From the IMG/VR virus record IMGVR_UViG_2585427768_000003, positions 1 through 26,251 of that record: DNA of 26,251 nt; one strand, written 5' to 3'. This document shows, in pieces, positions 1 through 23,982 of the stretch. The DNA comes from a virus (lineage: Duplodnaviria > Heunggongvirae > Uroviricota > Caudoviricetes). The first letter of the stretch is position 1, and each line of letters opens with the position of its first letter. The notes under the pieces are model-generated. The model saw only the letters and a program-made list of their open reading frames with translations, did no database searches and was not told the DNA's origin. The position numbers were made by a program, and so were the translations under genes.

Positions 1-1254
1 ATGCTGGAACAAATGGGCATTGCCGCGAAGCAAGCCTCGTATAAATTAGCGCAACTCTCCAGCCGCGAAAAAAATCGCGTGCTGGAAAAAATCGCCGATG
101 AACTGGAAGCACAAAGCGAAATCATCCTCAACGCTAACGCCCAGGATGTTGCTGACGCGCGAGCCAATGGCCTTAGCGAAGCGATGCTTGACCGTCTGGC
201 ACTGACGCCCGCACGGCTGAAAGGCATTGCCGACGATGTACGTCAGGTGTGCAACCTCGCCGATCCGGTGGGGCAGGTAATCGATGGCGGCGTACTGGAC
301 AGCGGCCTGCGTCTTGAGCGTCGTCGCGTACCGCTGGGGGTTATTGGCGTGATTTATGAAGCGCGCCCGAACGTGACGGTTGATGTCGCTTCGCTGTGCC
401 TGAAAACCGGTAATGCGGTGATCCTGCGCGGTGGCAAAGAAACGTGTCGCACTAACGCTGCAACGGTGGCGGTGATTCAGGACGCCCTGAAATCCTGCGG
501 CTTACCGGCGGGTGCCGTGCAGGCGATTGATAATCCTGACCGTGCGCTGGTCAGTGAAATGCTGCGTATGGATAAATACATCGACATGCTGATCCCGCGT
601 GGTGGCGCTGGTTTGCATAAACTGTGCCGTGAACAGTCGACAATCCCGGTGATCACAGGTGGTATAGGCGTATGCCATATTTACGTTGATGAAAGTGTAG
701 AGATCGCTGAAGCATTAAAAGTGATCGTCAACGCGAAAACTCAGCGTCCGAGCACATGTAATACGGTTGAAACGTTGCTGGTGAATAAAAACATCGCCGA
801 TAGCTTCCTGCCCGCATTAAGCAAACAAATGGCGGAAAGCGGCGTGACATTACACGCAGATGCAGCTGCACTGGCGCAGTTGCAGGCAGGCCCTGCGAAG
901 GTGGTTGCTGTTAAAGCCGAAGAGTATGACGATGAGTTTCTGTCATTAGATTTGAACGTCAAAATCGTCAGCGATCTTGACGATGCCATCGCCCATATTC
1001 GTGAACACGGCACACAACACTCCGATGCGATCCTGACCCGCGATATGCGCAACGCCCAGCGTTTTGTTAACGAAGTGGATTCGTCCGCTGTTTACGTTAA
1101 CGCCTCTACGCGTTTTACCGACGGCGGCCAGTTTGGTCTGGGTGCGGAAGTGGCGGTAAGCACACAAAAACTCCACGCGCGTGGCCCAATGGGGCTGGAA
1201 GCACTGACCACTTACAAGTGGATCGGCATTGGTGATTACACCATTCGTGCGTAA
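1..1254 (+). CDS. proA: gamma-glutamyl phosphate reductase (glutamate-5-semialdehyde dehydrogenase)
   Basis: 417-aa ORF starting at window position 1 with ATG; length and sequence match my recall of enterobacterial ProA (aldehyde dehydrogenase fold); lies directly upstream of thrW as in E. coli. Confidence 0.93.
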
Positions 1255-1258
1255 ATAA

Positions 1259-1323
1259 AACCGGGTGATGCAAAAGTAGCCATTTGATTCACAAGGCCAT
1301 TGACGCATCGCCCGGTTAGTTTT
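1259..1323 (+). terminator. putative proBA operon terminator (13-bp stem, large loop, U-rich tail)
   Basis: arms 1259..1271 AACCGGGTGATGC and 1305..1317 GCATCGCCCGGTT pair with one G-U, followed by AGTTTTAA; begins 5 nt after the proA stop. Confidence 0.35.
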
Positions 1324-1368
1324 AACCTTGTCCACCGTGATTCACGTTCGTGAACATGTCCTTTCAGG

Positions 1369-1444
1369 GCCGATATAGCTCAGTTGGTAGAGCAGCGCAT
1401 TCGTAATGCGAAGGTCGTAGGTTCGACTCCTATTATCGGCACCA
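1369..1444 (+). tRNA. thrW: tRNA-Thr (anticodon CGU)
   Basis: 76-nt sequence GCCGATATAGCTCAGTTGGTAGAGCAGCGCATTCGTAATGCGAAGGTCGTAGGTTCGACTCCTATTATCGGCACCA; acceptor stem GCCGATA/TATCGGC, anticodon loop TTCGTAA, T-loop GGTTCGACTCC, encoded CCA. Confidence 0.92.
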
Positions 1445-1446
1445 TT
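1399..1446. repeat. attL core: 48 bp identical to 25669..25716 (3' part of thrW)
   Basis: exact 48-bp direct repeat ATTCGTAATGCGAAGGTCGTAGGTTCGACTCCTATTATCGGCACCATT; flanking bases diverge on both sides. Confidence 0.85.
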
Positions 1447-1458
1447 TAAATCAATAAG

Positions 1459-2622
1459 TTACACATCATTAGTACCTTCCTTATTTTTTGACTGGGACAA
1501 ATTTGGGACCGATGGGTTCAGGATCGAGTCTATTTGCCGTGCGTGTTCGGTAAGGTGATTAGGTGCAAGGTGAGCATATCGACGAACCATTTCGATAGAC
1601 TCCCAGCCTCCCATTTCCTGTAACACTGACAACGGGACTCCGGCTTGAACCAGCCAACTTGCCCAGGTGTGTCTCAAGTCGTGAAATCTGAAATCATCAA
1701 TATCAGCCCGTCTCAGCGCCGCTTTCCAGGCTGTGTTTGCGTCATACCGCATCTTCCTTACTGTTGGCGCTTTCGTTCCGTCTGGTTTGGTACAGCTTTC
1801 CTTGTACACAAATACCCAACGGTGATGATTCCCGATTTGTTTTTTCAATACGCGACATGCAGTATCATTCAGCGCAACGCCAATTGCGCGGTTTGATTTA
1901 CTCTCTTCCGGGTTTATCCATGCCACCCGGCGCTGCATATCTATTTGTTGCCATTCAAGGTTGATGATGTTCGAGCGTCTTAAACCTGTTGCCAGTGCAA
2001 ATTCAACAACAGACTTTAATGGCTCCGGACATTCATCAATCAGCCTTTGTGCTTCATGGGGCTCCAGCCAGCGGATCCGTTTATTCTTTGGTTGAGGCAC
2101 TTTAATAATTGGTGCCTTATCCAGCATTTTCCATTCACGCTCTGCGGCTCTTAGTAGGGCCTTTATAAATGAAAGATGCGTAGCCTTCGTTGCAACGGAC
2201 GCTGGTTTTGGCGTGTATTCTGGAACAGGTTTCCCTTTTTTTCTGCATGCTTCTGCCCTGAGTCTCCAGTTTTCCTCATGACGCCGGTTCGTCATTTTCT
2301 GCATTGCTGAATAAATTTTTGATTCAGTAATGTCTCTTAGTTGCATTCCTGCGAAATGTTGAAGCCAGAATCCGATCCGGCTTTTGTCATCGTCCAGTGA
2401 TTTTTTATGTGCTTTCTCTTCAAGCCACCTGACACACGCTTCCTCGAACGTTATATCAGGTATTTCACCAAGTTTGCTGACCCGCCATGCTTCAGCCTTT
2501 AGCTTGTCATGGAGTTCTGTCGCCTGCCTTTTGTCCTTTGTTCCAAGAGACTGTTTAAATCTTTTACCGTTCGGCAATGTGAAACTGGCGTACCATATTT
2601 CACCTCTGCGGAAGAGTGACAT
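1459..2622 (-). CDS. int: tyrosine site-specific integrase (P22-like)
   Basis: 387 aa; C-terminal [10 protein letters not shown] and RRYAHL motifs typical of tyrosine recombinases; N-terminus matches my recall of P22 Int; ATG at 2622 with GAGGA Shine-Dalgarno; adjacent to tRNA att site. Confidence 0.9.
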
Positions 2623-9769: not shown

Positions 9770-10422
9770 TGAGTAATAAATATTGCCAGGCGCTGGTGGA
9801 GCTGCGAAACAAACCAGCCCATGAACTGAAGGAAGTGGGCGATCAGTGGCGCACGCCGGACAACATTTTCTGGGGAATTAACACCCTGTTTGGCCCGTTT
9901 GTTCTGGATCTGTTCACTGATGGTGATAACGCCAAATGTGCCGCTTATTACACTGCGGAAGACAACGCGCTGGCGCATGACTGGTCTGAACGTCTTGCGG
10001 AGCTTAAAGGTGCTGCCTTTGGTAATCCCCCGTACAGCCGCGCCAGTCAGCATGAGGGGCAATACATCACCGGCATGCGTTACATCATGAAACATGCCAG
10101 TGCTATGCGTGATAAAGGCGGGCGCTATGTTTTCCTGATCAAAGCTGCCACCAGCGAAGTTTGGTGGCCGGAAGATGCAGACCATATTGCTTTTATTCGC
10201 GGGCGTATTGGTTTTGAACTGCCAGCCTGGTTTATCCCGAAGGATGAGAAGCAGGTTCCGACAGGAGCTTTCTTCGCTGGTGCTATTGCTGTTTTCGACA
10301 AGACCTGGAAGGGACCGGCAATCAGCTACATCGGGCGCGATGAACTTGAGGCATGTGGTGAGGCCTTTCTGGCGCAGGTTCGCCAGCAGGCAGAAAAACT
10401 GGTCAGGGAGATGGTGGCATGA
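9769..10422 (+). CDS. phage DNA N6-adenine methyltransferase (Dam-like, orphan)
   Basis: 217 aa from ATG at 9769 (TAATG overlap with upstream stop); catalytic NPPY motif in AAFGNPPYS; no adjacent restriction endonuclease gene. Confidence 0.85.
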   Translation: MSNKYCQALVELRNKPAHELKEVGDQWRTPDNIFWGINTLFGPFVLDLFTDGDNAKCAAYYTAEDNALAHDWSERLAELKGAAFGNPPYSRASQHEGQYITGMRYIMKHASAMRDKGGRYVFLIKAATSEVWWPEDADHIAFIRGRIGFELPAWFIPKDEKQVPTGAFFAGAIAVFDKTWKGPAISYIGRDELEACGEAFLAQVRQQAEKLVREMVA

Positions 10423-10868
10423 CGACGTTAACTCAATGCCAGCAGCAGGTGCTGGATATGCTGATTTCTTATCAGAAAGAACGTGGCTTCCCGCCAACCA
10501 ATCAGGAGGTGGCAACCATGCTGGGATATCAGACCGGACGCCTGGCACGTTCGATTGGTTACATGGTACCCAGAGCCAGTAAACATCGCCCTGGTTTTAT
10601 GGCACGTATAGCCCCTAACCAGCGTAATGGAGAGGGAAACCGCCGTATCACCGGTGATTTTTATCCGGCTTTTTTGTTCTATGGCGTGAGGCGAGGGGCA
10701 AAGCGTCGTCGCAGCCATCATCGTGGTGCATCCGGTGGCAGCGGCTGGCGACTGGCTCCACGTAATAACTTCATGGTGGAAACGCTTGAAAAGAACCGCA
10801 GCTGGACACGCTATTTTCTGGCGCGGGAATTGCGTAAATCACTGAAGCCGGAGCGACGACGCAGATGA
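10419..10868 (+). CDS. protein with LexA-like N-terminal DNA-binding domain and highly basic C-terminal half; possible chimeric junction ORF
   Basis: N-terminus MTTLTQCQQQVLDMLISYQKERGFPPTNQEVATMLGYQ resembles the LexA N-terminal wHTH; C-terminal half Arg/Gly-rich with no recognisable fold; ATGA overlaps at both ends. Confidence 0.5.
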   Translation: MTTLTQCQQQVLDMLISYQKERGFPPTNQEVATMLGYQTGRLARSIGYMVPRASKHRPGFMARIAPNQRNGEGNRRITGDFYPAFLFYGVRRGAKRRRSHHRGASGGSGWRLAPRNNFMVETLEKNRSWTRYFLARELRKSLKPERRRR

Positions 10869-13709: not shown

Positions 13710-13858
13710 CGGCTGAATACCTTACTGATCGCTTCTTTGATTGCGCCAGCTACTGGCGCATTAATCCCTTCGAATTGCTGAATATGCCGATCAGTGAAAT
13801 TCCCTTGCTGGTCAGTCAGGCAAACAGGATAGAGCAGGAGAAACGCACACATGGCTGA
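13440..13858 (+). CDS. tail assembly chaperone, predicted -1 frameshift fusion product
   Basis: -1 frame after the slippery site stays open to 13858 (FFPPGLTAEYLTDRFFD...) and overlaps the tape-measure start, the conserved G/GT-type arrangement. Confidence 0.65.
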
Positions 13859-15683
13859 ATTTGAGCTTAAGGCGTTGATCACCGGTGTCGACAGGCTTTC
13901 TCCCGCGCTGTCGAAAATGCAAAAGAAAATCCGGGGATTTAAACGCCAGGCGGAAGAAGCGTCACAGGGTGGGCTGGCGCTTGGTGGCGGACTGGCAGCG
14001 GGTCTGACGCTTTCCCTGAAATCTTATGCCGATCAGGAAAACGCCGCCACCGGGCTGAAAGTCGCCATGATGGATGCGAATGGCGAGGTTGGAAAGAGCT
14101 TTCAGGACATCAATAAACTGGCTATTGGCCTGGGTAACCAGCTACCCGGTACAACGGCTGATTTCCAGAACATGATGCAGATGCTGGTGCGTCAGGGGAT
14201 CCCGGCAGAAAACATTCTTGGCGGTGTGGGTAAAGCGACAGCTTATCTTGCGGTACAACTGAAAAAAACACCGGAAGCGGCTGCTGAGTTTGCTGCAAAG
14301 ATGCAGGATGCTACCGGAACGGCGTCAGAAGACATGATGGGGCTGTTCGACACTATCCAGAAGGCGTTTTATCTGGGCGTTGACGATACCAACATGTTGT
14401 CCTTCTTCACTAAAACCAGTTCTGTTCTGAAGATGGTGAACAAGGACGGTCTTCAGGCTGCACAGAGCCTTGCCCCCATCAGCGTCATGATGGATCAGAT
14501 GGGGATGAACGGGGAGTCGGCAGGTAATGCCCTGCGAAAAGTTATCCAGTCCGGATTAAGCGTTAAGAAAATCAGGGACGTCAATAAAATCATGGCCCGC
14601 CAGAAACTCGGGGTACAGCTCGATTTTACTGACGGCAAAGGAAGTTTTGGCGGTCTTGATAACATGTTCAGGCAACTGGCAAAGCTGCGAAAACTGACCG
14701 ACGTTAAGCGAACAGGTGTACTTAAGGCAATATTTGGTGATGATGCCGAAACCCTTCAGGTGGTCAATGCACTAATCGATAAAGGAAAGGATGGCTACGA
14801 TCAGATCCAGCAGAAGATGAATAAACAGGCCAGCCTGAATAAACGTGTTCAGGCCCAGCTTGGTACGCTGTCCAACCTGTGGGAGGCAATGACGGGGACC
14901 GCAACTAACGGCCTTGCGGCTATTGGCGGCGCATTTTCTGGTGACGCCAAAAATATCACGCAATGGCTGGGGGAGTTGGGGGAGAAATTCACGAAGTTTG
15001 CGGATGAAAATCCCCGGGTTATTCGCGGCGTCGTCGGGCTTGCTGCCGGTCTTGCGATTCTGAAACTGGGATTGATGGGCGTGGGCAGTGCCATCAGTAT
15101 CGTCAGCAGGATCATGTCGATGACGCCGATTGGCATGATTGCGACGGCGATTGCCCTGGCTGCGGGATTAATTATCACTAACTGGGATGTTGTCGGACCT
15201 TATTTTAAGAAACTCTGGGAAACCATTAGTCCTTATTTTGAGGCTGGCTGGGAACTTCTGAAGAAGGTTTTTGCCTGGTCGCCGCTGGGGATGGTGATCA
15301 ATAACTGGGGACCGGTTGTTAAGTGGTTTCAGGATATGTGGGATAAGCTGAAGCCGATTATTGAATGGTTTACCGACAGTTCCGGTGACACGGTCGATGC
15401 CATTAACTCGGCGCAGTGGGGCGCGGGTGCTTATGATGCTTATGGGACGGGAATACCGGCACGGGGATACACGCCTTATCCGGCGGTGGATCCGGCTCAG
15501 GCAAACAACGCCTCCGATGCCACAGGCTCGAATCCCTTCATGATTAATAAAGCTACCGCGCCAAAAGTTGATGGTGAGATCAAGGTATCATTTATAAATA
15601 TGCCACCAGATATGCGGGTTACGGAAACACGCTCCAGTGGCATTGATATAAATCACGATGTTGGCTATACCCGATTTTGGTAG
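13851..15683 (+). CDS. tail tape measure protein
   Basis: 610 aa; Ala/Gly/Leu-rich with long hydrophobic central segments typical of tape measure proteins; located after the chaperone pair. Confidence 0.85.
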   Translation: MAEFELKALITGVDRLSPALSKMQKKIRGFKRQAEEASQGGLALGGGLAAGLTLSLKSYADQENAATGLKVAMMDANGEVGKSFQDINKLAIGLGNQLPGTTADFQNMMQMLVRQGIPAENILGGVGKATAYLAVQLKKTPEAAAEFAAKMQDATGTASEDMMGLFDTIQKAFYLGVDDTNMLSFFTKTSSVLKMVNKDGLQAAQSLAPISVMMDQMGMNGESAGNALRKVIQSGLSVKKIRDVNKIMARQKLGVQLDFTDGKGSFGGLDNMFRQLAKLRKLTDVKRTGVLKAIFGDDAETLQVVNALIDKGKDGYDQIQQKMNKQASLNKRVQAQLGTLSNLWEAMTGTATNGLAAIGGAFSGDAKNITQWLGELGEKFTKFADENPRVIRGVVGLAAGLAILKLGLMGVGSAISIVSRIMSMTPIGMIATAIALAAGLIITNWDVVGPYFKKLWETISPYFEAGWELLKKVFAWSPLGMVINNWGPVVKWFQDMWDKLKPIIEWFTDSSGDTVDAINSAQWGAGAYDAYGTGIPARGYTPYPAVDPAQANNASDATGSNPFMINKATAPKVDGEIKVSFINMPPDMRVTETRSSGIDINHDVGYTRFW

Positions 15684-15711
15684 CCAGGATTCCCCTCACA
15701 GGTATTGCTGG

Positions 15712-15739
15712 TTGTAAGTCATAAATAGAGTGATAGAAT
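15712..15739 (+). promoter_or_regulatory. putative sigma70 promoter for the moron gene (-35 TTGTAA, 16-bp spacer, -10 TAGAAT)
   Basis: TTGTAA at 15712..15717 and TAGAAT at 15734..15739, about 36 bp upstream of the ATG at 15775, in an AT-rich insert. Confidence 0.5.
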
Positions 15740-15774
15740 TAATGCACATTTAGAAAAATGTTAATAGGCGAAAA

Positions 15775-16305
15775 ATGAAAGGCTATATCACAGCAAGTGT
15801 AATTCTTGGAGCAGCGGCTATTTTTTCATCTCTCATAATCTCTGGCAACATCTCCTTTAAAGATGAACATATTATTCAGTTATCTGGAGGAGCCATAAAA
15901 CTTGGTGATGTTTATAAAGAAAATAAATTGATAAGTGCAAAGATTATTTTTCCAGATAATCAGGGTGAACAGATTCTTGTTGTCGACGGCAATCCTGAAA
16001 ACTTTAAGGAGGATTTTCAGGAGAAATTAAATAAAGTAATAAAAACTTTAAATGCGTCAAAGAAAAAAGATGAAGAGAAAGTTAGCCTGGATAATTTAAG
16101 TGTTATTGAAGAGTCTAAACTAGAGCTCGTTTCTGCGGTGCGTTACTCTGCTCAGTATGTTCCTATGTTTACTCTGACGCTGGACAAAAAAGAAATTACC
16201 ATGCCTAAAAATACGGTAATATTTCCATTTGCCAGCGATGAAACAGCTAAGTATTTAAATGAACAACAGCAAAAGTATAAAGATTCGTTGTTTCTGACTC
16301 GCTAA
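15775..16305 (+). CDS. moron-encoded hypothetical membrane-anchored or secreted protein
   Basis: 176 aa; N-terminal hydrophobic segment ITASVILGAAAIFSSLIISG; Lys/Glu-rich remainder; strongly AT-rich relative to flanking tail genes; own promoter-like and terminator elements. Confidence 0.7.
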   Translation: MKGYITASVILGAAAIFSSLIISGNISFKDEHIIQLSGGAIKLGDVYKENKLISAKIIFPDNQGEQILVVDGNPENFKEDFQEKLNKVIKTLNASKKKDEEKVSLDNLSVIEESKLELVSAVRYSAQYVPMFTLTLDKKEITMPKNTVIFPFASDETAKYLNEQQQKYKDSLFLTR

Positions 16306-16322
16306 TTAATAAAATTCATTAC

Positions 16323-16356
16323 AAGGCCACCTTCTAATAGGTGGCTTTTTTATTTT
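16323..16356 (+). terminator. Rho-independent terminator after the moron gene
   Basis: stem GCCACC (16326..16331) / GGTGGC (16340..16345), 8-nt loop, followed by TTTTTTATTTT. Confidence 0.7.
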
Positions 16357-16366
16357 CGGAGTGTAT

Positions 16367-17695
16367 ATGACGTGGAAAGACAGGCTTCAGGATGCGTCAT
16401 TTCGAGGTGTGCCGTTTAAGGTTGAAGAAGAAAGTGCGGGAACCGGTCGCCGTGTGGAAACACATGAATACCCGAACCGCGACAAGCCCTATACCGAAGA
16501 TCTGGGAAAAGTCACTTTCCGCCCGTCCATCACAGCTTATGTGGTGGGAGATGACTGCTTTGACCAGCGCGATCGCCTGATTGAAGCGCTGAATAAACCC
16601 GGTCCCGGCAAGCTTGTCCACCCGACATATGGTGAGCTGAAAGTCTGTGTTGACGGGGAAGTTCGGGTCAGCACATCGAAAAGTGAAGGGCGTATTGTCC
16701 GCTTTGACCTGAAGTTTGTCGAAGCAGGAGAACTCTCTTACCCCACATCAGGTGCGGCGACGGCGCAGACGCTGATGTCATCCTGTTCTGCACTGGATGA
16801 CTGCATCAGTGACAGTTTCAGTGGTTTCAGTATCGATGGCGTGGCGGATTTTGTGCAGAACGACGTCGTCGGTAATGCCAGCACAATGCTTGGGTATGTT
16901 TCTGATGCGATGAAAGTGGTGGATTCTGCCGTATCGGATGCCGCCAGACTGTTGCAGGGGGATATCTCGGTACTTCTGCCGCCGCCATCGTCAGGCAAAA
17001 ATTTCGTTGAGCAGGTGCAGAAAATGTGGCGTACCGGGAAGCGCCTTTATGGTAACGCCAGCGACCTGGTCACCATGATCAAAACGCTTTCCGGTGTCAG
17101 CCTCGGCAGCGATCTGCAACCGCGCGGCGTCTGGAAAACGGACAGTAAAACCACCGCCACGGCTACGCAGCAGCGTAACGTGGTTGCCAGCACCCTTCGT
17201 ACGACCGCAATCAGCGAAGCGGCGTATGCCGTCACCCGATTGCCTGCGCCAACAACTTCCGCGGTGATGCAGAATGCCGCAGTGGGGCAGGCAACAACAC
17301 CTGCGCAGAGCACTGGCTGGCCTTCCGTCACGCATCCGGCACTGAACAATGCACCGGCGGTGAAAAACACAGTTGACCTGCCGACGTGGGAAGAACTGAC
17401 TGACATTCGCGACACACTGAATACGGCAATTGATAAGGAGTTGTCCCGTACAACCAGTGATGCGCTGTTTCTGGCGCTGCGCCGGGTGAAAGCAGATCTG
17501 AATGCGGATATCAACACGCGCCTTGAACAGTCTGCACGGATCATTCAGCGCACGCCGGATGAGGTTTTACCCGCGCTGGTGCTGGCGGCGACCTGGTTTG
17601 ATAACGCGGCGCGTGACGCGGACATTATCCGGCGTAATGCCATTACGCATCCCGGCTTTGTGCCGGTGATCCCTCTGAAGGTGCCAGTGCAATGA
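16367..17695 (+). CDS. DNA circularisation protein (Mu N-like) of the tail/baseplate module
   Basis: about 443 aa; ATG at 16367 preceded by GGAG at 5-nt spacing (track start 16361 is GTG); N-terminus WKDRLQDASFRGVPFKVEEE typical of Mu N family. Confidence 0.8.
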   Translation: MTWKDRLQDASFRGVPFKVEEESAGTGRRVETHEYPNRDKPYTEDLGKVTFRPSITAYVVGDDCFDQRDRLIEALNKPGPGKLVHPTYGELKVCVDGEVRVSTSKSEGRIVRFDLKFVEAGELSYPTSGAATAQTLMSSCSALDDCISDSFSGFSIDGVADFVQNDVVGNASTMLGYVSDAMKVVDSAVSDAARLLQGDISVLLPPPSSGKNFVEQVQKMWRTGKRLYGNASDLVTMIKTLSGVSLGSDLQPRGVWKTDSKTTATATQQRNVVASTLRTTAISEAAYAVTRLPAPTTSAVMQNAAVGQATTPAQSTGWPSVTHPALNNAPAVKNTVDLPTWEELTDIRDTLNTAIDKELSRTTSDALFLALRRVKADLNADINTRLEQSARIIQRTPDEVLPALVLAATWFDNAARDADIIRRNAITHPGFVPVIPLKVPVQ

Positions 17696-22648: not shown

Positions 22649-22664
22649 CGCGGTTTTATTTATT
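22634..22664. terminator. bidirectional Rho-independent terminator between convergent genes
   Basis: stem AACCGCGC/GCGCGGTT with AATA loop, A-tract 5' and T-tract 3'; both convergent stop codons (22646..22648 and 22660..22662) lie inside the element. Confidence 0.7.
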
Positions 22665-23679
22665 TTACTGCTAAAATTCGTTTTCTTAGCATCAGCTCTA
22701 AAGGCTCCTCAACTAATTTATAAAGTATGATTGAGACTATGGTTATTATAACAAGGAGCGCTATTAAATAGAGTGGTCCGGGGTTATGTCCAAAGATTTT
22801 AAAGCAAAATAATATAATGGGTTGATGAATTAAATAAAAAATAAATGATGATTTCCCTAATAGCTCTAGGGTTTTTGAACTGAGGATAGTATGAATGACT
22901 CCATTTCTTAGATAGATGCATGAAGTAAAGAATATTACCATGGGGAGTAAATAATATAACGAATAACGTAGACTATTATTTATGTTGTTGCTATAATATA
23001 TAGCTATTAGCAGAGGTAATAGTGAAATTAAAAACAAAAGGCTGTCGACTGTCTGCTGTCGGCTGTTTTTCCAGCAAGCGTAAATAATCATGCCGCAAAT
23101 AAATTCTACCAAGCGGCTTACTGGGAATATATAATATAACCAGTGATTAAGTTCTTCTGTTTGTATAATTTTTAAAAAATATATAGTTAATAGTAGAGTT
23201 ATAATTGATATTGCAGTGATTACTTTCTTTGTAATTGATGTATAAATCAACGGAATAAACATTAAATAAAAAAACAGCTCATCAGACAAAGACCATGATA
23301 CACCATTTAATGAGAAGTAGTAATCCTCCTTTGGTATCCAACTTTGCATTAATAAAATATTTGTTAAGGTTTTTGAAAAATCAAAGTTCTTTAAGTGAAT
23401 GGTTAGTAAAATAAATGGCATGGCTAATAATAGATGCATTGGAACAATTCTTGCCAATCTTAAAAGAATAAACTGTCTTTTACTTGTTACTTCATTTTTT
23501 AGCTTGTCTTCATATGAATATGAAAGAATGAAGCCAGATAAAATAAAGAAAAAGGAAACGCCAATAAATCCCTGGGAAAACATTTCTTTTACAAAAACAC
23601 CAAAATAGTCTGTATTTAAATGGCATAAATAAACCATTAATGCAGCTATAAATCTGAGTCCTGTTAAGTGGCGAAGCAT
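22660..23679 (-). CDS. membrane acyltransferase family 3 (O-antigen acetyltransferase Oac/OafA-like), likely serotype-conversion gene
   Basis: 339 aa from ATG at 23679 (AAGAGG Shine-Dalgarno; track start 23709 also possible); multiple predicted TM helices; N-terminal RHLTGLRFIAALMVYLCH motif typical of acyltransferase-3; very AT-rich. Confidence 0.8.
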   Translation of the reverse strand: MLRHLTGLRFIAALMVYLCHLNTDYFGVFVKEMFSQGFIGVSFFFILSGFILSYSYEDKLKNEVTSKRQFILLRLARIVPMHLLLAMPFILLTIHLKNFDFSKTLTNILLMQSWIPKEDYYFSLNGVSWSLSDELFFYLMFIPLIYTSITKKVITAISIITLLLTIYFLKIIQTEELNHWLYYIFPVSRLVEFICGMIIYACWKNSRQQTVDSLLFLISLLPLLIAIYYSNNINNSLRYSLYYLLPMVIFFTSCIYLRNGVIHTILSSKTLELLGKSSFIFYLIHQPIILFCFKIFGHNPGPLYLIALLVIITIVSIILYKLVEEPLELMLRKRILAVK

Positions 23680-23982
23680 CAATAACCTCTTGTTATGAAG
23701 ATAAAGCAATTCAAAAGAGGCATTTTATGACTGTAGGGGATTGGTGTCTATATGAATGAGTAATCTGGTTTTTAAAATCTTCTTTAATTACAAAATAAAC
23801 CTTTCTTAGGCTATAGATTTGTGGCTGTAACACTGTGTGTCCACGACATTGAGACATCCTTCCGCTTTGCTATAGATGTGGAATTCAGGATCAAGCGATA
23901 TCGGACTCATCCTCAGCACCACCCGGTTAATCTGGATAACGGGAGAAGGGAAGCGCTGCCAGAAGATGATGATGGTTACAGT

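What the first reader, a model, noticed from the sequence alone, without database searches (positions are those of the whole stretch)
15684..16366. AT-rich moron with its own promoter and terminator inserted between tape-measure and DNA-circularisation genes
A 683-bp AT-rich insert interrupts an otherwise tightly overlapping GC-rich tail operon. It encodes a 176-aa protein with one N-terminal hydrophobic anchor or signal segment and a Lys/Glu-rich soluble part that I cannot assign to any family. It is preceded by a TTGTAA-16-TAGAAT promoter-like element and followed by a clean intrinsic terminator, the standard architecture of lysogen-expressed morons. Envelope-located morons in tail operons are often superinfection-exclusion, injection-blocking or abortive-infection factors, so this is my top candidate for an undescribed function.
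Basis: partly seen in the sequence, partly recalled or inferred. Interest (0 to 1): 0.72.

Follow-up and report, generated by a model that had tools for sequence, protein, structure and literature searches.

The report
Exported-protein moron in prophage tail operon
An AT-rich add-on gene wedged between two tail genes of a defective SfV-like E. coli prophage encodes a small exported protein of an uncharacterised family with no known structural relatives; it is most likely a phage-exclusion or other host-benefit factor, but nobody has tested that.

Summary
ORF 15775-16305 (176 aa, GC 0.34 against about 0.55 in the flanks) fills the gap between the tape-measure gene and the DNA-circularisation gene of an SfV/SfI/SfII-type prophage.

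It is an accessory cassette. About 1,090 of 5,426 complete E. coli genomes carry this tail backbone, and about 175 carry this gene. SfV, SfI and SfII have an empty 60-bp spacer. Other prophages carry unrelated small genes at the same site: a Sec-secreted protein, a lipoprotein, a TM-anchored OB-fold protein and a bacterial PH-domain protein.

All 55 aligned relatives keep an N-terminal export helix. Relatives recur as AT-rich gene-plus-terminator cassettes in two myovirus tail types. Others sit beside a prophage repressor and a Lamassu system, or in small integrative elements.

The promoter-like motif is no better than chance. The terminator also exists in empty sites.

Best reading: a periplasm-facing superinfection-exclusion-type moron, analogous to HK97 gp15. 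This is inferred, not shown. It is a new member of a known kind, of moderate interest.

The parts
13851..15683 (+). Tail tape-measure protein gene (upstream backbone flank); its stop codon is the left boundary of the cassette
   Evidence: ORF list. Annotated as TMP in identical E. coli records. Homology among filled and empty sites ends right after this stop codon.
15684..15774 (+). 91-nt AT-rich leader of the cassette, with an AGG Shine-Dalgarno-like element 6 nt before the ATG
   Evidence: Sequence. No similarity to the empty-site spacer. There are 7 polymorphic positions among 74 viral-contig copies, none inside 15712-15739.
15712..15739 (+). Sigma-70 promoter-like motif TTGTAA-16 nt-TAGAAT with TG extension (candidate only)
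   Evidence: 9/12 match; 3 sites found against 3.0 expected by shuffling. Not conserved upstream of orthologues. Invariant in 74 copies, which is weak evidence.
15775..16305 (+). Moron CDS: 176-aa exported protein, member of PHROG 5485 (WP_000679479.1 in RefSeq, 'hypothetical protein')
   Evidence: 77 cluster representatives in a search of 1.8 billion proteins. pN/pS about 0.2. AlphaFold pLDDT 91.3.
15778..15843 (+). Codons 2-23: N-terminal hydrophobic helix (signal peptide or type II signal-anchor, N-in/C-out)
   Evidence: AlphaFold helix 2-23. The uncharged hydrophobic segment preceded by K/R is conserved in all 55 aligned relatives. There is no Cys, so no lipobox.
16323..16356 (+). Intrinsic-terminator-like GC hairpin (10 bp stem, 6-nt loop) plus T-run
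   Evidence: dG -15.6, z -3.55. An equivalent hairpin plus T-run follows the gene in L002, L006, L104, L103 and L105. It also occurs in empty and other-cargo sites.
16357..17695 (+). RBS (GGAG 16358-16361) and DNA-circularisation / Mu gp43(N)-like tail gene (downstream backbone flank; ATG at 16367)
   Evidence: The sequence TTTTTTAT.T.CGGAGTTTATATGACGTGG is shared by empty and filled sites and marks the right boundary.

Best explanation
The 683-bp segment is a horizontally exchanged moron cassette (leader + gene + terminator). It occupies a cassette-swap site between the tape-measure and DNA-circularisation genes of an SfV-type prophage with an HK97-like head and a Mu-like contractile tail.

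Its product is exported by its N-terminal hydrophobic helix. A compact alpha/beta domain of about 145 residues therefore sits in the periplasm, either tethered to the inner membrane or released.

The most likely role is superinfection exclusion at the envelope. Made in the lysogen, and unavoidably also during late transcription, the protein would interfere with the step after adsorption. At that step the tail tip, tape-measure protein and hub of an incoming, probably related, contractile-tailed phage cross the periplasm and open the inner-membrane channel. DNA would then not enter.

Shown: the accessory nature, the exchange site, the export signal, purifying selection, a novel fold and recurrence on mobile elements.

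Inferred: periplasmic location, expression in lysogens, and the exclusion function and its target.
For: (1) Accessory, not structural.
- It is absent from SfV, SfI and SfII, whose flanks are 95% identical.
- About 175 of about 1,090 backbone-carrying E. coli genomes have it.
- There is no DNA or protein match in 50,697 phage records.

(2) The same site carries unrelated alternative cargos, most of them envelope-targeted and AT-rich.
- A Sec-signal protein in 85 genomes and in phage SKA5.
- A TM-anchored OB-fold protein in 72 genomes.
- A lipoprotein in 55 genomes.

(3) It is a real, selected protein family.
- 77 cluster representatives, almost all 165-200 aa and full length.
- Conserved motifs.
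- pN/pS about 0.2 among 26 alleles.
- AlphaFold pLDDT 91.3.

(4) The export signal is universal. All 55 relatives have an N-terminal segment of about 23 uncharged residues, preceded by K/R and almost never by D/E.

(5) The contexts are of the 'guilt by association' kind.
- In a Tolumonas P2/186-like prophage the homologue lies between the S24 CI-type repressor and a Lamassu/ABC-3C system and integrase.
- In Pseudomonas-type integrative elements it lies beside a resolvase and an Mrr-type nuclease.
- An orphan copy persists in the Enterobacter asburiae chromosome without phage genes.

(6) It recurs as an AT-rich gene-plus-terminator cassette next to tail-tip genes in two different myovirus tail architectures. 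Exclusion genes are known to be linked to the entry apparatus they match. The precedent is HK97 gp15, a moron next to the TMP gene whose inner-membrane product blocks DNA entry in a tail-dependent way (PMC3594210).

(7) It evolves faster than its structural neighbours. It is 53-54% identical between E. coli and Leclercia orthologues, against 75-86% for sheath, tube and baseplate P.

(8) The only structural neighbour is a phage 'lipoprotein' from Pseudomonas phage ventosus (Foldseek E 1.8e-6, TM 0.56/0.66).
Against: - There is no functional test.
- The promoter needed for lysogen expression is only a chance-level motif and is not conserved. In L105 the gene overlaps the upstream baseplate gene, which suggests late-operon expression.
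- Some genomes carrying this gene hold 2-3 copies of the same tail backbone. Strict self-exclusion is therefore not evident.
- Not all cargos at the site are envelope proteins. Phage EPP-1 carries a bacterial PH-domain protein.
- Cleavage versus anchoring of the N-terminal helix could not be predicted with the available tools.
Confidence: 0.4

Rival explanations
1. It is a lysogenic-conversion envelope protein whose benefit has nothing to do with phages. One possibility is an orphan periplasmic immunity protein against a periplasm-acting bacteriocin or T6SS/CDI effector, like the membrane-anchored colicin M immunity protein. Another is a stress, adhesion or serum-resistance factor like lambda Bor or Lom.
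For: - Exported small protein carried on several kinds of mobile element.
- An orphan copy is retained in the Enterobacter asburiae chromosome.
- Purifying selection.
- Morons with such roles are well documented (PMC3594210).
Against: - No structural similarity to any solved immunity, adhesin or Bor-like protein.
- No toxin gene nearby in any context.
- Repeated physical linkage to tail-tip genes and to defence genes fits a phage-directed role better.
- The family occurs in environmental taxa (marine Pseudomonas-type MAG, Tolumonas), which argues against an animal-host virulence role.
Confidence: 0.27
2. It is a late-expressed lytic-cycle helper rather than a lysogen-expressed moron. Transcribed with the tail operon, the exported protein would modify the envelope of the infected cell. 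It might prevent progeny or secondary phages from injecting into the dying cell or its debris (as T5 Llp does), or it might modulate lysis.
For: - Same strand as the late tail operon in every tail context, and overlapping the upstream gene in L105.
- No supported promoter of its own.
- Viable phages tolerate cargo at this site (SKA5, EPP-1).
Against: - Relatives also sit in a lysogeny operon downstream of a CI-type repressor, and in non-phage integrative elements and chromosomal islets where no late transcription exists.
- In this window the late regulatory, lysis and head genes are deleted, yet the ORF is intact.
- The terminator downstream would be pointless for a simple operon member.
- The fold is alpha/beta rather than a spanin-like coiled coil, and no embedded o-spanin ORF exists.
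Confidence: 0.15
3. It is a structural or assembly component of the contractile tail, such as a tail-tip or ejection protein whose hydrophobic helix inserts into the target membrane.
For: - It sits among tail-tip and baseplate genes in three different prophage lineages.
- One of 55 relatives gives a weak hit to a 'tail protein' PHROG (E 0.0016).
Against: - Absent from SfV, SfI and SfII and from most E. coli prophages with near-identical tail genes.
- Replaced at the same site by unrelated proteins.
- AT-rich foreign composition in all tail contexts.
- An N-terminal export-type signal would route it out of the cytoplasm, where tails assemble.
- Also found outside any tail module.
Confidence: 0.04
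4. It is a decaying or neutral passenger ORF with no current function.
For: - The prophage in this window is itself defective.
- Truncated or frameshifted alleles exist (L088; P0005, P0020, P0022 and P0103).
Against: - The family is conserved at full length across 77 clusters down to about 20% identity, with invariant motifs.
- pN/pS about 0.2.
- A high-confidence fold driven by co-variation.
- The orthologue has been kept at the same site at 53% identity across genera.
Confidence: 0.04

Closest known systems
HK97 gp15 moron (superinfection-exclusion protein; YebO-related)
   Same: An AT-rich extra gene inserted in a tail operon directly adjacent to the tape-measure gene, encoding a small envelope protein. 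gp15 inserts in the inner membrane and blocks DNA entry in a way that depends on the incoming phage's tail (PMC3594210).
   Different: - No sequence relationship (no Pfam hit at all).
- It sits on the other side of the TMP gene and in a contractile (Mu-like) tail rather than a siphovirus tail.
- The protein is larger, with a folded periplasmic alpha/beta domain.
- Function and lysogen expression are untested here.
T4 Spackle (Sp) and Imm; P22 SieA
   Same: Small membrane- or periplasm-located phage proteins that stop a superinfecting phage after adsorption. Spackle inhibits the tail-tip lysozyme, and Imm and SieA block DNA transfer. This rests on general knowledge; SieA is described in PMC10883804 (abstract).
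   Different: No sequence or fold similarity was detected. Those genes are not tail-operon cassettes.
Lipoprotein exclusion factors: T5 Llp, phi80/N15 Cor, Streptococcus TP-J34 Ltp
   Same: Exported proteins of temperate or virulent phages that block entry. Their genes are often linked either to tail or receptor-binding genes or to the lysogeny module, the same two positions seen for this family (Ltp: PMC3952083 abstract; Cor: PMC3594210). The only structural neighbour of the model is annotated as a phage lipoprotein.
   Different: This protein has no cysteine and hence no lipobox. There is no homology, and no receptor is known.
PHROG 5485 / PHROG 34391 (unknown function)
   Same: Full-length HMM match (E 3.8e-108). 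All 55 aligned relatives hit PHROG 5485. This is the family it belongs to.
   Different: The family has no annotation, so membership adds no function.
Prophage defence hotspots (e.g. P2-like hotspots); SNIPE membrane nuclease
   Same: A fixed site between conserved phage genes where unrelated accessory genes are swapped. SNIPE shows that membrane-located defences can recognise tape-measure proteins during injection (PMC13190303 abstract).
   Different: The site here lies inside the tail operon and carries single small, mostly exported proteins rather than multi-gene cytoplasmic systems. The protein has no nuclease motifs, and the weak endonuclease PHROG hit was not reproduced in relatives.

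Membership tests
Moron (Juhala/Hendrix sense) | Extra gene absent from otherwise collinear relatives | tested here: met
   Empty 60-bp spacer in L010 and in SfV, SfI and SfII with 94-95% identical flanks.
Moron (Juhala/Hendrix sense) | Base composition different from surrounding genes | tested here: met
   GC 0.343 against 0.52-0.57 in the flanks. The same dip is seen in five other tail contexts.
Moron (Juhala/Hendrix sense) | Own promoter | tested here: inconclusive
   A 9/12 match with TG extension at 15712-15739, but 3 sites found against 3.0 expected. Only 2 of 10 family contexts have such a match.
Moron (Juhala/Hendrix sense) | Own terminator | tested here: met
   A hairpin plus T-run follows the gene in all six tail contexts. 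Caveat: a comparable terminator is also present in empty sites.
Moron (Juhala/Hendrix sense) | Expression from the repressed prophage | not testable with these tools
   Needs RNA-seq or 5'-RACE in a lysogen.
PHROG 5485 | Full-length match to the family HMM | tested here: met
   E 3.8e-108, residues 1-176 on profile 1-176. 55 of 55 relatives match.
HK97 gp15 / YebO family | Sequence homology to YebO/gp15 | tested here: not met
   No Pfam family at E up to 10. No NCBIfam hit.
Superinfection-exclusion proteins (functional class) | Blocks infection after adsorption (DNA entry) when expressed alone | not testable with these tools
   Requires a phage challenge with adsorption and DNA-entry assays.
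Known anti-phage defence systems (PADLOC-DB 2.0) | HMM match to a catalogued defence protein | tested here: not met
   0 families at E up to 10. The alternative cargos B, C and D also gave 0.
Bacterial lipoprotein exclusion factors (Llp/Cor/Ltp type) | Lipobox with an invariant Cys after the signal peptide | tested here: not met
   The protein contains no cysteine. Alternative cargo D at the same site does have LLGGC.
Tail structural / assembly protein of the Mu-like tail | Present in every functional phage with this tail module | tested here: not met
   Absent in SfV, SfI, SfII and vB_EcoM-689R6. No match in 50,697 phage records.
i-spanin (Rz-like) | N-terminal TM anchor + periplasmic coiled-coil + embedded or adjacent o-spanin lipoprotein gene, within a lysis cassette | tested here: not met
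   The TM anchor is present, but the domain is a mixed beta-sheet/helix fold. No overlapping or adjacent ORF of 50 aa or more exists. The location is the tail operon, and intact relatives of this prophage have their own Rz/Rz1-type genes.

The most novel reading that the evidence does not exclude
PHROG 5485 would be a structurally new family of periplasmic superinfection-exclusion proteins. It would travel as a gene-plus-terminator cassette with the tail-tip modules of temperate myoviruses and target the tape-measure/hub complex of incoming phages. The tape-measure | DNA-circularisation junction of SfV-type prophages would be a compact cassette-swap hotspot. Its other cargos (a secreted protein, a lipoprotein, a TM-anchored OB-fold protein and a bPH protein) would be further undescribed envelope-level anti-phage factors.
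Probability: 0.33. Interest if true: 0.7.

Novelty: new member of a known kind. Interest (0 to 1): 0.5.

Why it matters
Envelope-level defences that stop phage DNA before it enters are much less catalogued than cytoplasmic systems, because the proteins are small, fast-evolving and family-less.

This locus offers a defined, easily cloned candidate: 176 aa, a confident and apparently new fold, and a conserved export signal.

It also offers a mapped exchange site present in about 20% of complete E. coli genomes. At least five alternative cargos can be compared on one isogenic tail backbone.

If the exclusion role holds, it would add a family acting against contractile-tailed phages. It would also point to the tail-tip proteins that cross the periplasm as its target. 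That matters for phage-therapy host range in E. coli and Shigella and for understanding polylysogeny.

If it does not hold, the finding remains an ordinary, well-delimited moron of unknown function.

Tried and rejected
- Homology and profile searches found nothing: Pfam, NCBIfam and PADLOC with the protein, Pfam with all 55 relatives, and the family profile against PDB sequences.
- Structure: the first AlphaFold run, with 14 close sequences, was poor (pLDDT 63). The second, with 55 diverse sequences, was confident.
- Phage records: blastn and tblastn with the insert found nothing.
- Related loci: the alignment was too diverse for the genome scan. Two distant subfamilies had no relatives in IMG/VR.
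- Literature: no paper mentions WP_000679479. The SfIV paper's moron is at a different site. PMC13407855 is not relevant.
- Rfam gave only sub-threshold leader hits caused by the terminator hairpin.
- No direct or inverted repeats flank the insert, so there is no transposition signature. Boundaries coincide with conserved flanks, which suggests cassette replacement by recombination.
- The spanin, lipoprotein and structural-protein readings were considered and rejected (see the membership tests).

Full report
OBSERVATION

The window carries an ATG-initiated ORF at 15775-16305 (+, 176 aa). It lies between the stop codon of a 610-aa tape-measure gene (13851-15683) and the start of the DNA-circularisation (Mu gp43/N-like) gene. 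That gene has its ATG at 16367 and a GGAG RBS at 16358-16361.

GC falls to 0.32-0.35 across the ORF (0.343 for the CDS), against 0.51-0.62 in the neighbours. The neighbouring tail genes abut or overlap by 1-4 nt.

The TTGTAA-16-TAGAAT motif with a TG extension is at 15712-15739. A 10-bp GC hairpin plus T-run is at 16323-16356. The hairpin folds at -15.6 kcal/mol, z = -3.55, and 0 of 200 shuffles fold as well.

The promoter-like motif is not more than chance. The scan found 3 such sites in the region against 3.0 expected.

WHAT THE ELEMENT SITS IN

The window starts in proA, followed by tRNA-Thr (1369-1444), an integrase and lambdoid early genes. The tail genes match SfV, SfI and SfII-type phages (HK97-like head, Mu-like contractile tail) at about 95% identity.

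Compared with the same prophage in E. coli KSC1031, the window lacks 14,372 bp. The junction is near 10524-10528. The Q-type antiterminator, lysis genes, terminase, portal, protease, capsid and connector genes are all missing. None of 5,426 complete E. coli genomes has this junction. The prophage here is therefore defective, yet the 176-aa ORF is intact.

IT IS AN ACCESSORY CASSETTE AT A SWAP SITE

About 1,070-1,093 of 5,426 complete E. coli genomes contain the flanking tail sequence. Only 171-175 contain this insert.

- Most of the others have an empty 60-bp spacer, for example L010. Phages SfV, SfI, SfII and vB_EcoM-689R6 are also empty.
- Other prophages carry unrelated genes at exactly the same place.
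  - A 164-aa protein with a classical Sec signal peptide is found in 85 genomes and in the viable phage SKA5.
  - A 148-aa minus-strand TM-anchored tRNA_anti-like OB-fold protein is found in 72 genomes.
  - A 225-aa lipoprotein with an LLGGC lipobox is found in 55 genomes.
  - Edwardsiella phage EPP-1 carries a bacterial PH-domain protein.
- All four E. coli cargos are AT-rich (GC 0.31-0.42).

The left boundary of every cassette is the TMP stop codon. The right boundary is the conserved T-run and RBS of the DNA-circularisation gene. No flanking repeats exist. Exchange therefore looks like cassette replacement by recombination in the conserved flanks.

A GC hairpin plus T-run directly upstream of the DNA-circularisation RBS is present in the empty site and with the plus-strand cargos examined; the stem sequences differ. 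The minus-strand OB-fold cargo (L011) lacks it there and instead has a GC hairpin next to the tape-measure stop codon. The SfII annotators marked this hairpin as a putative rho-independent terminator. The terminator is thus as much a property of the site as of this insert.

THE PROTEIN

There is no Pfam, NCBIfam or PADLOC match. It matches PHROG 5485 (unknown function) over its full length. RefSeq calls it hypothetical (WP_000679479.1), and no paper mentions that accession. No isolated phage in 50,697 records encodes it.

The word-indexed search found only Enterobacteriaceae relatives. An exhaustive profile search of 1.84 billion representatives found 77 clusters, 48 of them at E below 1e-10. 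Nearly all are 165-200 aa and align end to end.

Conserved features of the family:
- an N-terminal hydrophobic helix;
- the motif N-[IV]-[IL]-x3-G-x-V-x-L-G-x-[VI]-Y-x-E;
- Asn93;
- the motif Y-x-S-E-x-x-P-x-F-x-L.

All 55 aligned members have an uncharged N-terminal segment (median 23 residues, mean hydropathy 2.2). It is preceded by 1-2 K/R and almost never by D/E. That is the signature of a signal peptide or an N-in/C-out signal-anchor. Several distant members show A-x-A/S-x-A-like cleavage motifs. The window protein has no cysteine, so it is not a lipoprotein.

Among 74 near-identical viral-contig copies (26 alleles) there are 13 synonymous and 10 non-synonymous polymorphic sites. With 111 synonymous and 417 non-synonymous sites, pN/pS is about 0.2.

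With the 55-sequence alignment AlphaFold gives a confident model (pLDDT 91.3, pTM 0.76):
- helix 2-23;
- a beta-hairpin (33-42);
- strands 46-58 and 67-72;
- helix 74-93;
- strands 114-126 and 132-143;
- helix 149-171.

WHERE RELATIVES LIVE

(a) The same TMP | X | DNA_circ_N position is used in Leclercia and Lelliottia-type prophages at 53-54% identity. It is also used in a more distant prophage at about 30% identity (L104). Across these orthologous tails the moron protein is less conserved than most neighbours:
- sheath 75-76%;
- tube 79-86%;
- baseplate P 82-83%;
- DNA-circularisation protein 69-73%.

(b) Relatives lie inside the baseplate and spike gene cluster of a different myovirus tail type, E217/Pam3-like (L103, L105).

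In all six tail contexts the gene is AT-rich (0.33-0.39 against 0.51-0.57) and is followed by a hairpin plus T-run just before the next tail gene.

(c) In a Tolumonas P2/186-like prophage the gene follows the S24 CI-type repressor. It precedes a Lamassu/ABC-3C system (CTD9, MC5, LmuB-like ATPase at E 1.5e-41) and the integrase.

(d) In small integrative elements of a marine Pseudomonas-type MAG and a metagenome contig it lies next to a resolvase, an Mrr-type nuclease and a DUF5906 primase-like gene.

(e) An orphan AT-rich copy lies in the Enterobacter asburiae chromosome beside an omptin fragment.

INTERPRETATION

The presence/absence data, the foreign composition, the export signal and the non-tail contexts exclude a structural tail role. 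Conservation, selection and the confident fold exclude a junk ORF.

The gene is therefore a bona fide moron-type accessory gene encoding a periplasm-facing protein. Three things point to an envelope-level anti-phage role:
- its repeated linkage to tail-tip genes;
- its appearance in a lysogeny operon next to a defence system;
- the predominance of envelope proteins among alternative cargos at the site.

The best documented analogue is HK97 gp15. That moron lies adjacent to the TMP gene, and its inner-membrane product blocks DNA entry in a tail-dependent manner (PMC3594210). TP-J34 Ltp, T5 Llp/Cor, P22 SieA and T4 Spackle/Imm are analogues in mechanism but not in sequence. SNIPE shows that membrane-located defences can use tape-measure proteins as their cue (PMC13190303).

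I put this reading at about 0.4. The rivals are:
- a phage-unrelated lysogenic-conversion or immunity function (about 0.27);
- a late-expressed lytic helper (about 0.15);
- a structural protein (about 0.04);
- a neutral passenger (about 0.04).

WEAK POINTS

- Expression in lysogens is not shown.
- The promoter-like motif is at chance level. A comparable motif is found upstream of only 2 of 10 family members. Its 28 bp are, however, invariant in 74 copies while 7 of the other 63 leader positions vary (about p = 0.07 by my estimate).
- In one context the gene overlaps the upstream baseplate gene.
- Some genomes carrying the gene hold two or three copies of the same tail backbone, so strict self-exclusion is not evident.
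- Cleavage of the signal could not be predicted with the available tools.

VERDICT

The moron interpretation is supported except for the promoter. The exclusion function is plausible, now better motivated, but untested.

This is a new member (an uncharacterised family with an apparently new fold) of a known kind (a tail-operon moron encoding an envelope protein). The added value of this analysis is the definition of a cassette-swap site in a very common E. coli and Shigella prophage tail module, and of a wider family (PHROG 5485) that can be tested directly.

Noticed in passing
window 10419-10868 (junction near 10524-10528): Relative to the same prophage in E. coli KSC1031, the window lacks 14,372 bp. 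The deletion fuses a LexA-like regulator gene to the gene preceding the tail terminator. It removes the antiterminator, lysis, terminase, portal, protease, capsid and connector genes, so the prophage is defective. No complete E. coli genome of 5,426 has this junction.
   Followed up: partly
window 1-2622: The prophage is integrated next to proA at tRNA-Thr(cgt) (1369-1444), with a tyrosine integrase on the minus strand (1459-2577/2622). The same cassette also occurs in an ssrA-integrated prophage in strain EC1515.
   Followed up: partly
window 22660-23709 (minus strand): An Acyl_transf_3 family acyltransferase gene lies downstream of the tail-fibre region. It is a second moron-like, probably O-antigen-modifying lysogenic-conversion gene of the kind typical for SfV-type serotype-converting phages.
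   Followed up: partly
L010:788-850; L102:900-938 (SfII); window 16323-16356: The empty TMP | DNA-circularisation spacer of SfV-type phages already contains an intrinsic-terminator-like hairpin plus T-run inside the late tail operon. Stem sequences differ between cargo states, while the T-run and RBS are conserved. Whether it attenuates baseplate-gene expression or is a scar or landing pad for cassettes is unexplained.
   Followed up: partly
L009:884-1378, L011:817-1263 (minus), L013:815-1492, L101:989-1366: Four unrelated alternative cargos occupy the same site: a Sec-secreted 164-aa protein, a TM-anchored OB-fold (PF12869) protein, a 225-aa lipoprotein and a bPH_1 protein. None has a PADLOC hit. 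All are candidates for the same kind of test.
   Followed up: partly
L099:6950-14068 (Tolumonas sp. MAG): A P2/186-like prophage lysogeny region is arranged as S24 repressor, PHROG-5485 homologue, two unknown ORFs, a three-gene Lamassu/ABC-3C system (CTD9, MC5, LmuB-like ATPase) and integrase. This is a defence hotspot downstream of the repressor.
   Followed up: partly
L014:5434-8534 (Pseudomonas-type MAG): In a small integrative element the family member is preceded by another secreted 180-aa protein of unknown function and by a resolvase/invertase and an Mrr-type nuclease. A possible two-gene exported module was not examined.
   Followed up: no
L018:28223-30056 (E. coli KSC1031): In KSC1031 the tape-measure gene next to the same cassette is annotated as frameshifted (1-bp difference from the window), so that otherwise complete prophage may also be tail-defective.
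   Followed up: no
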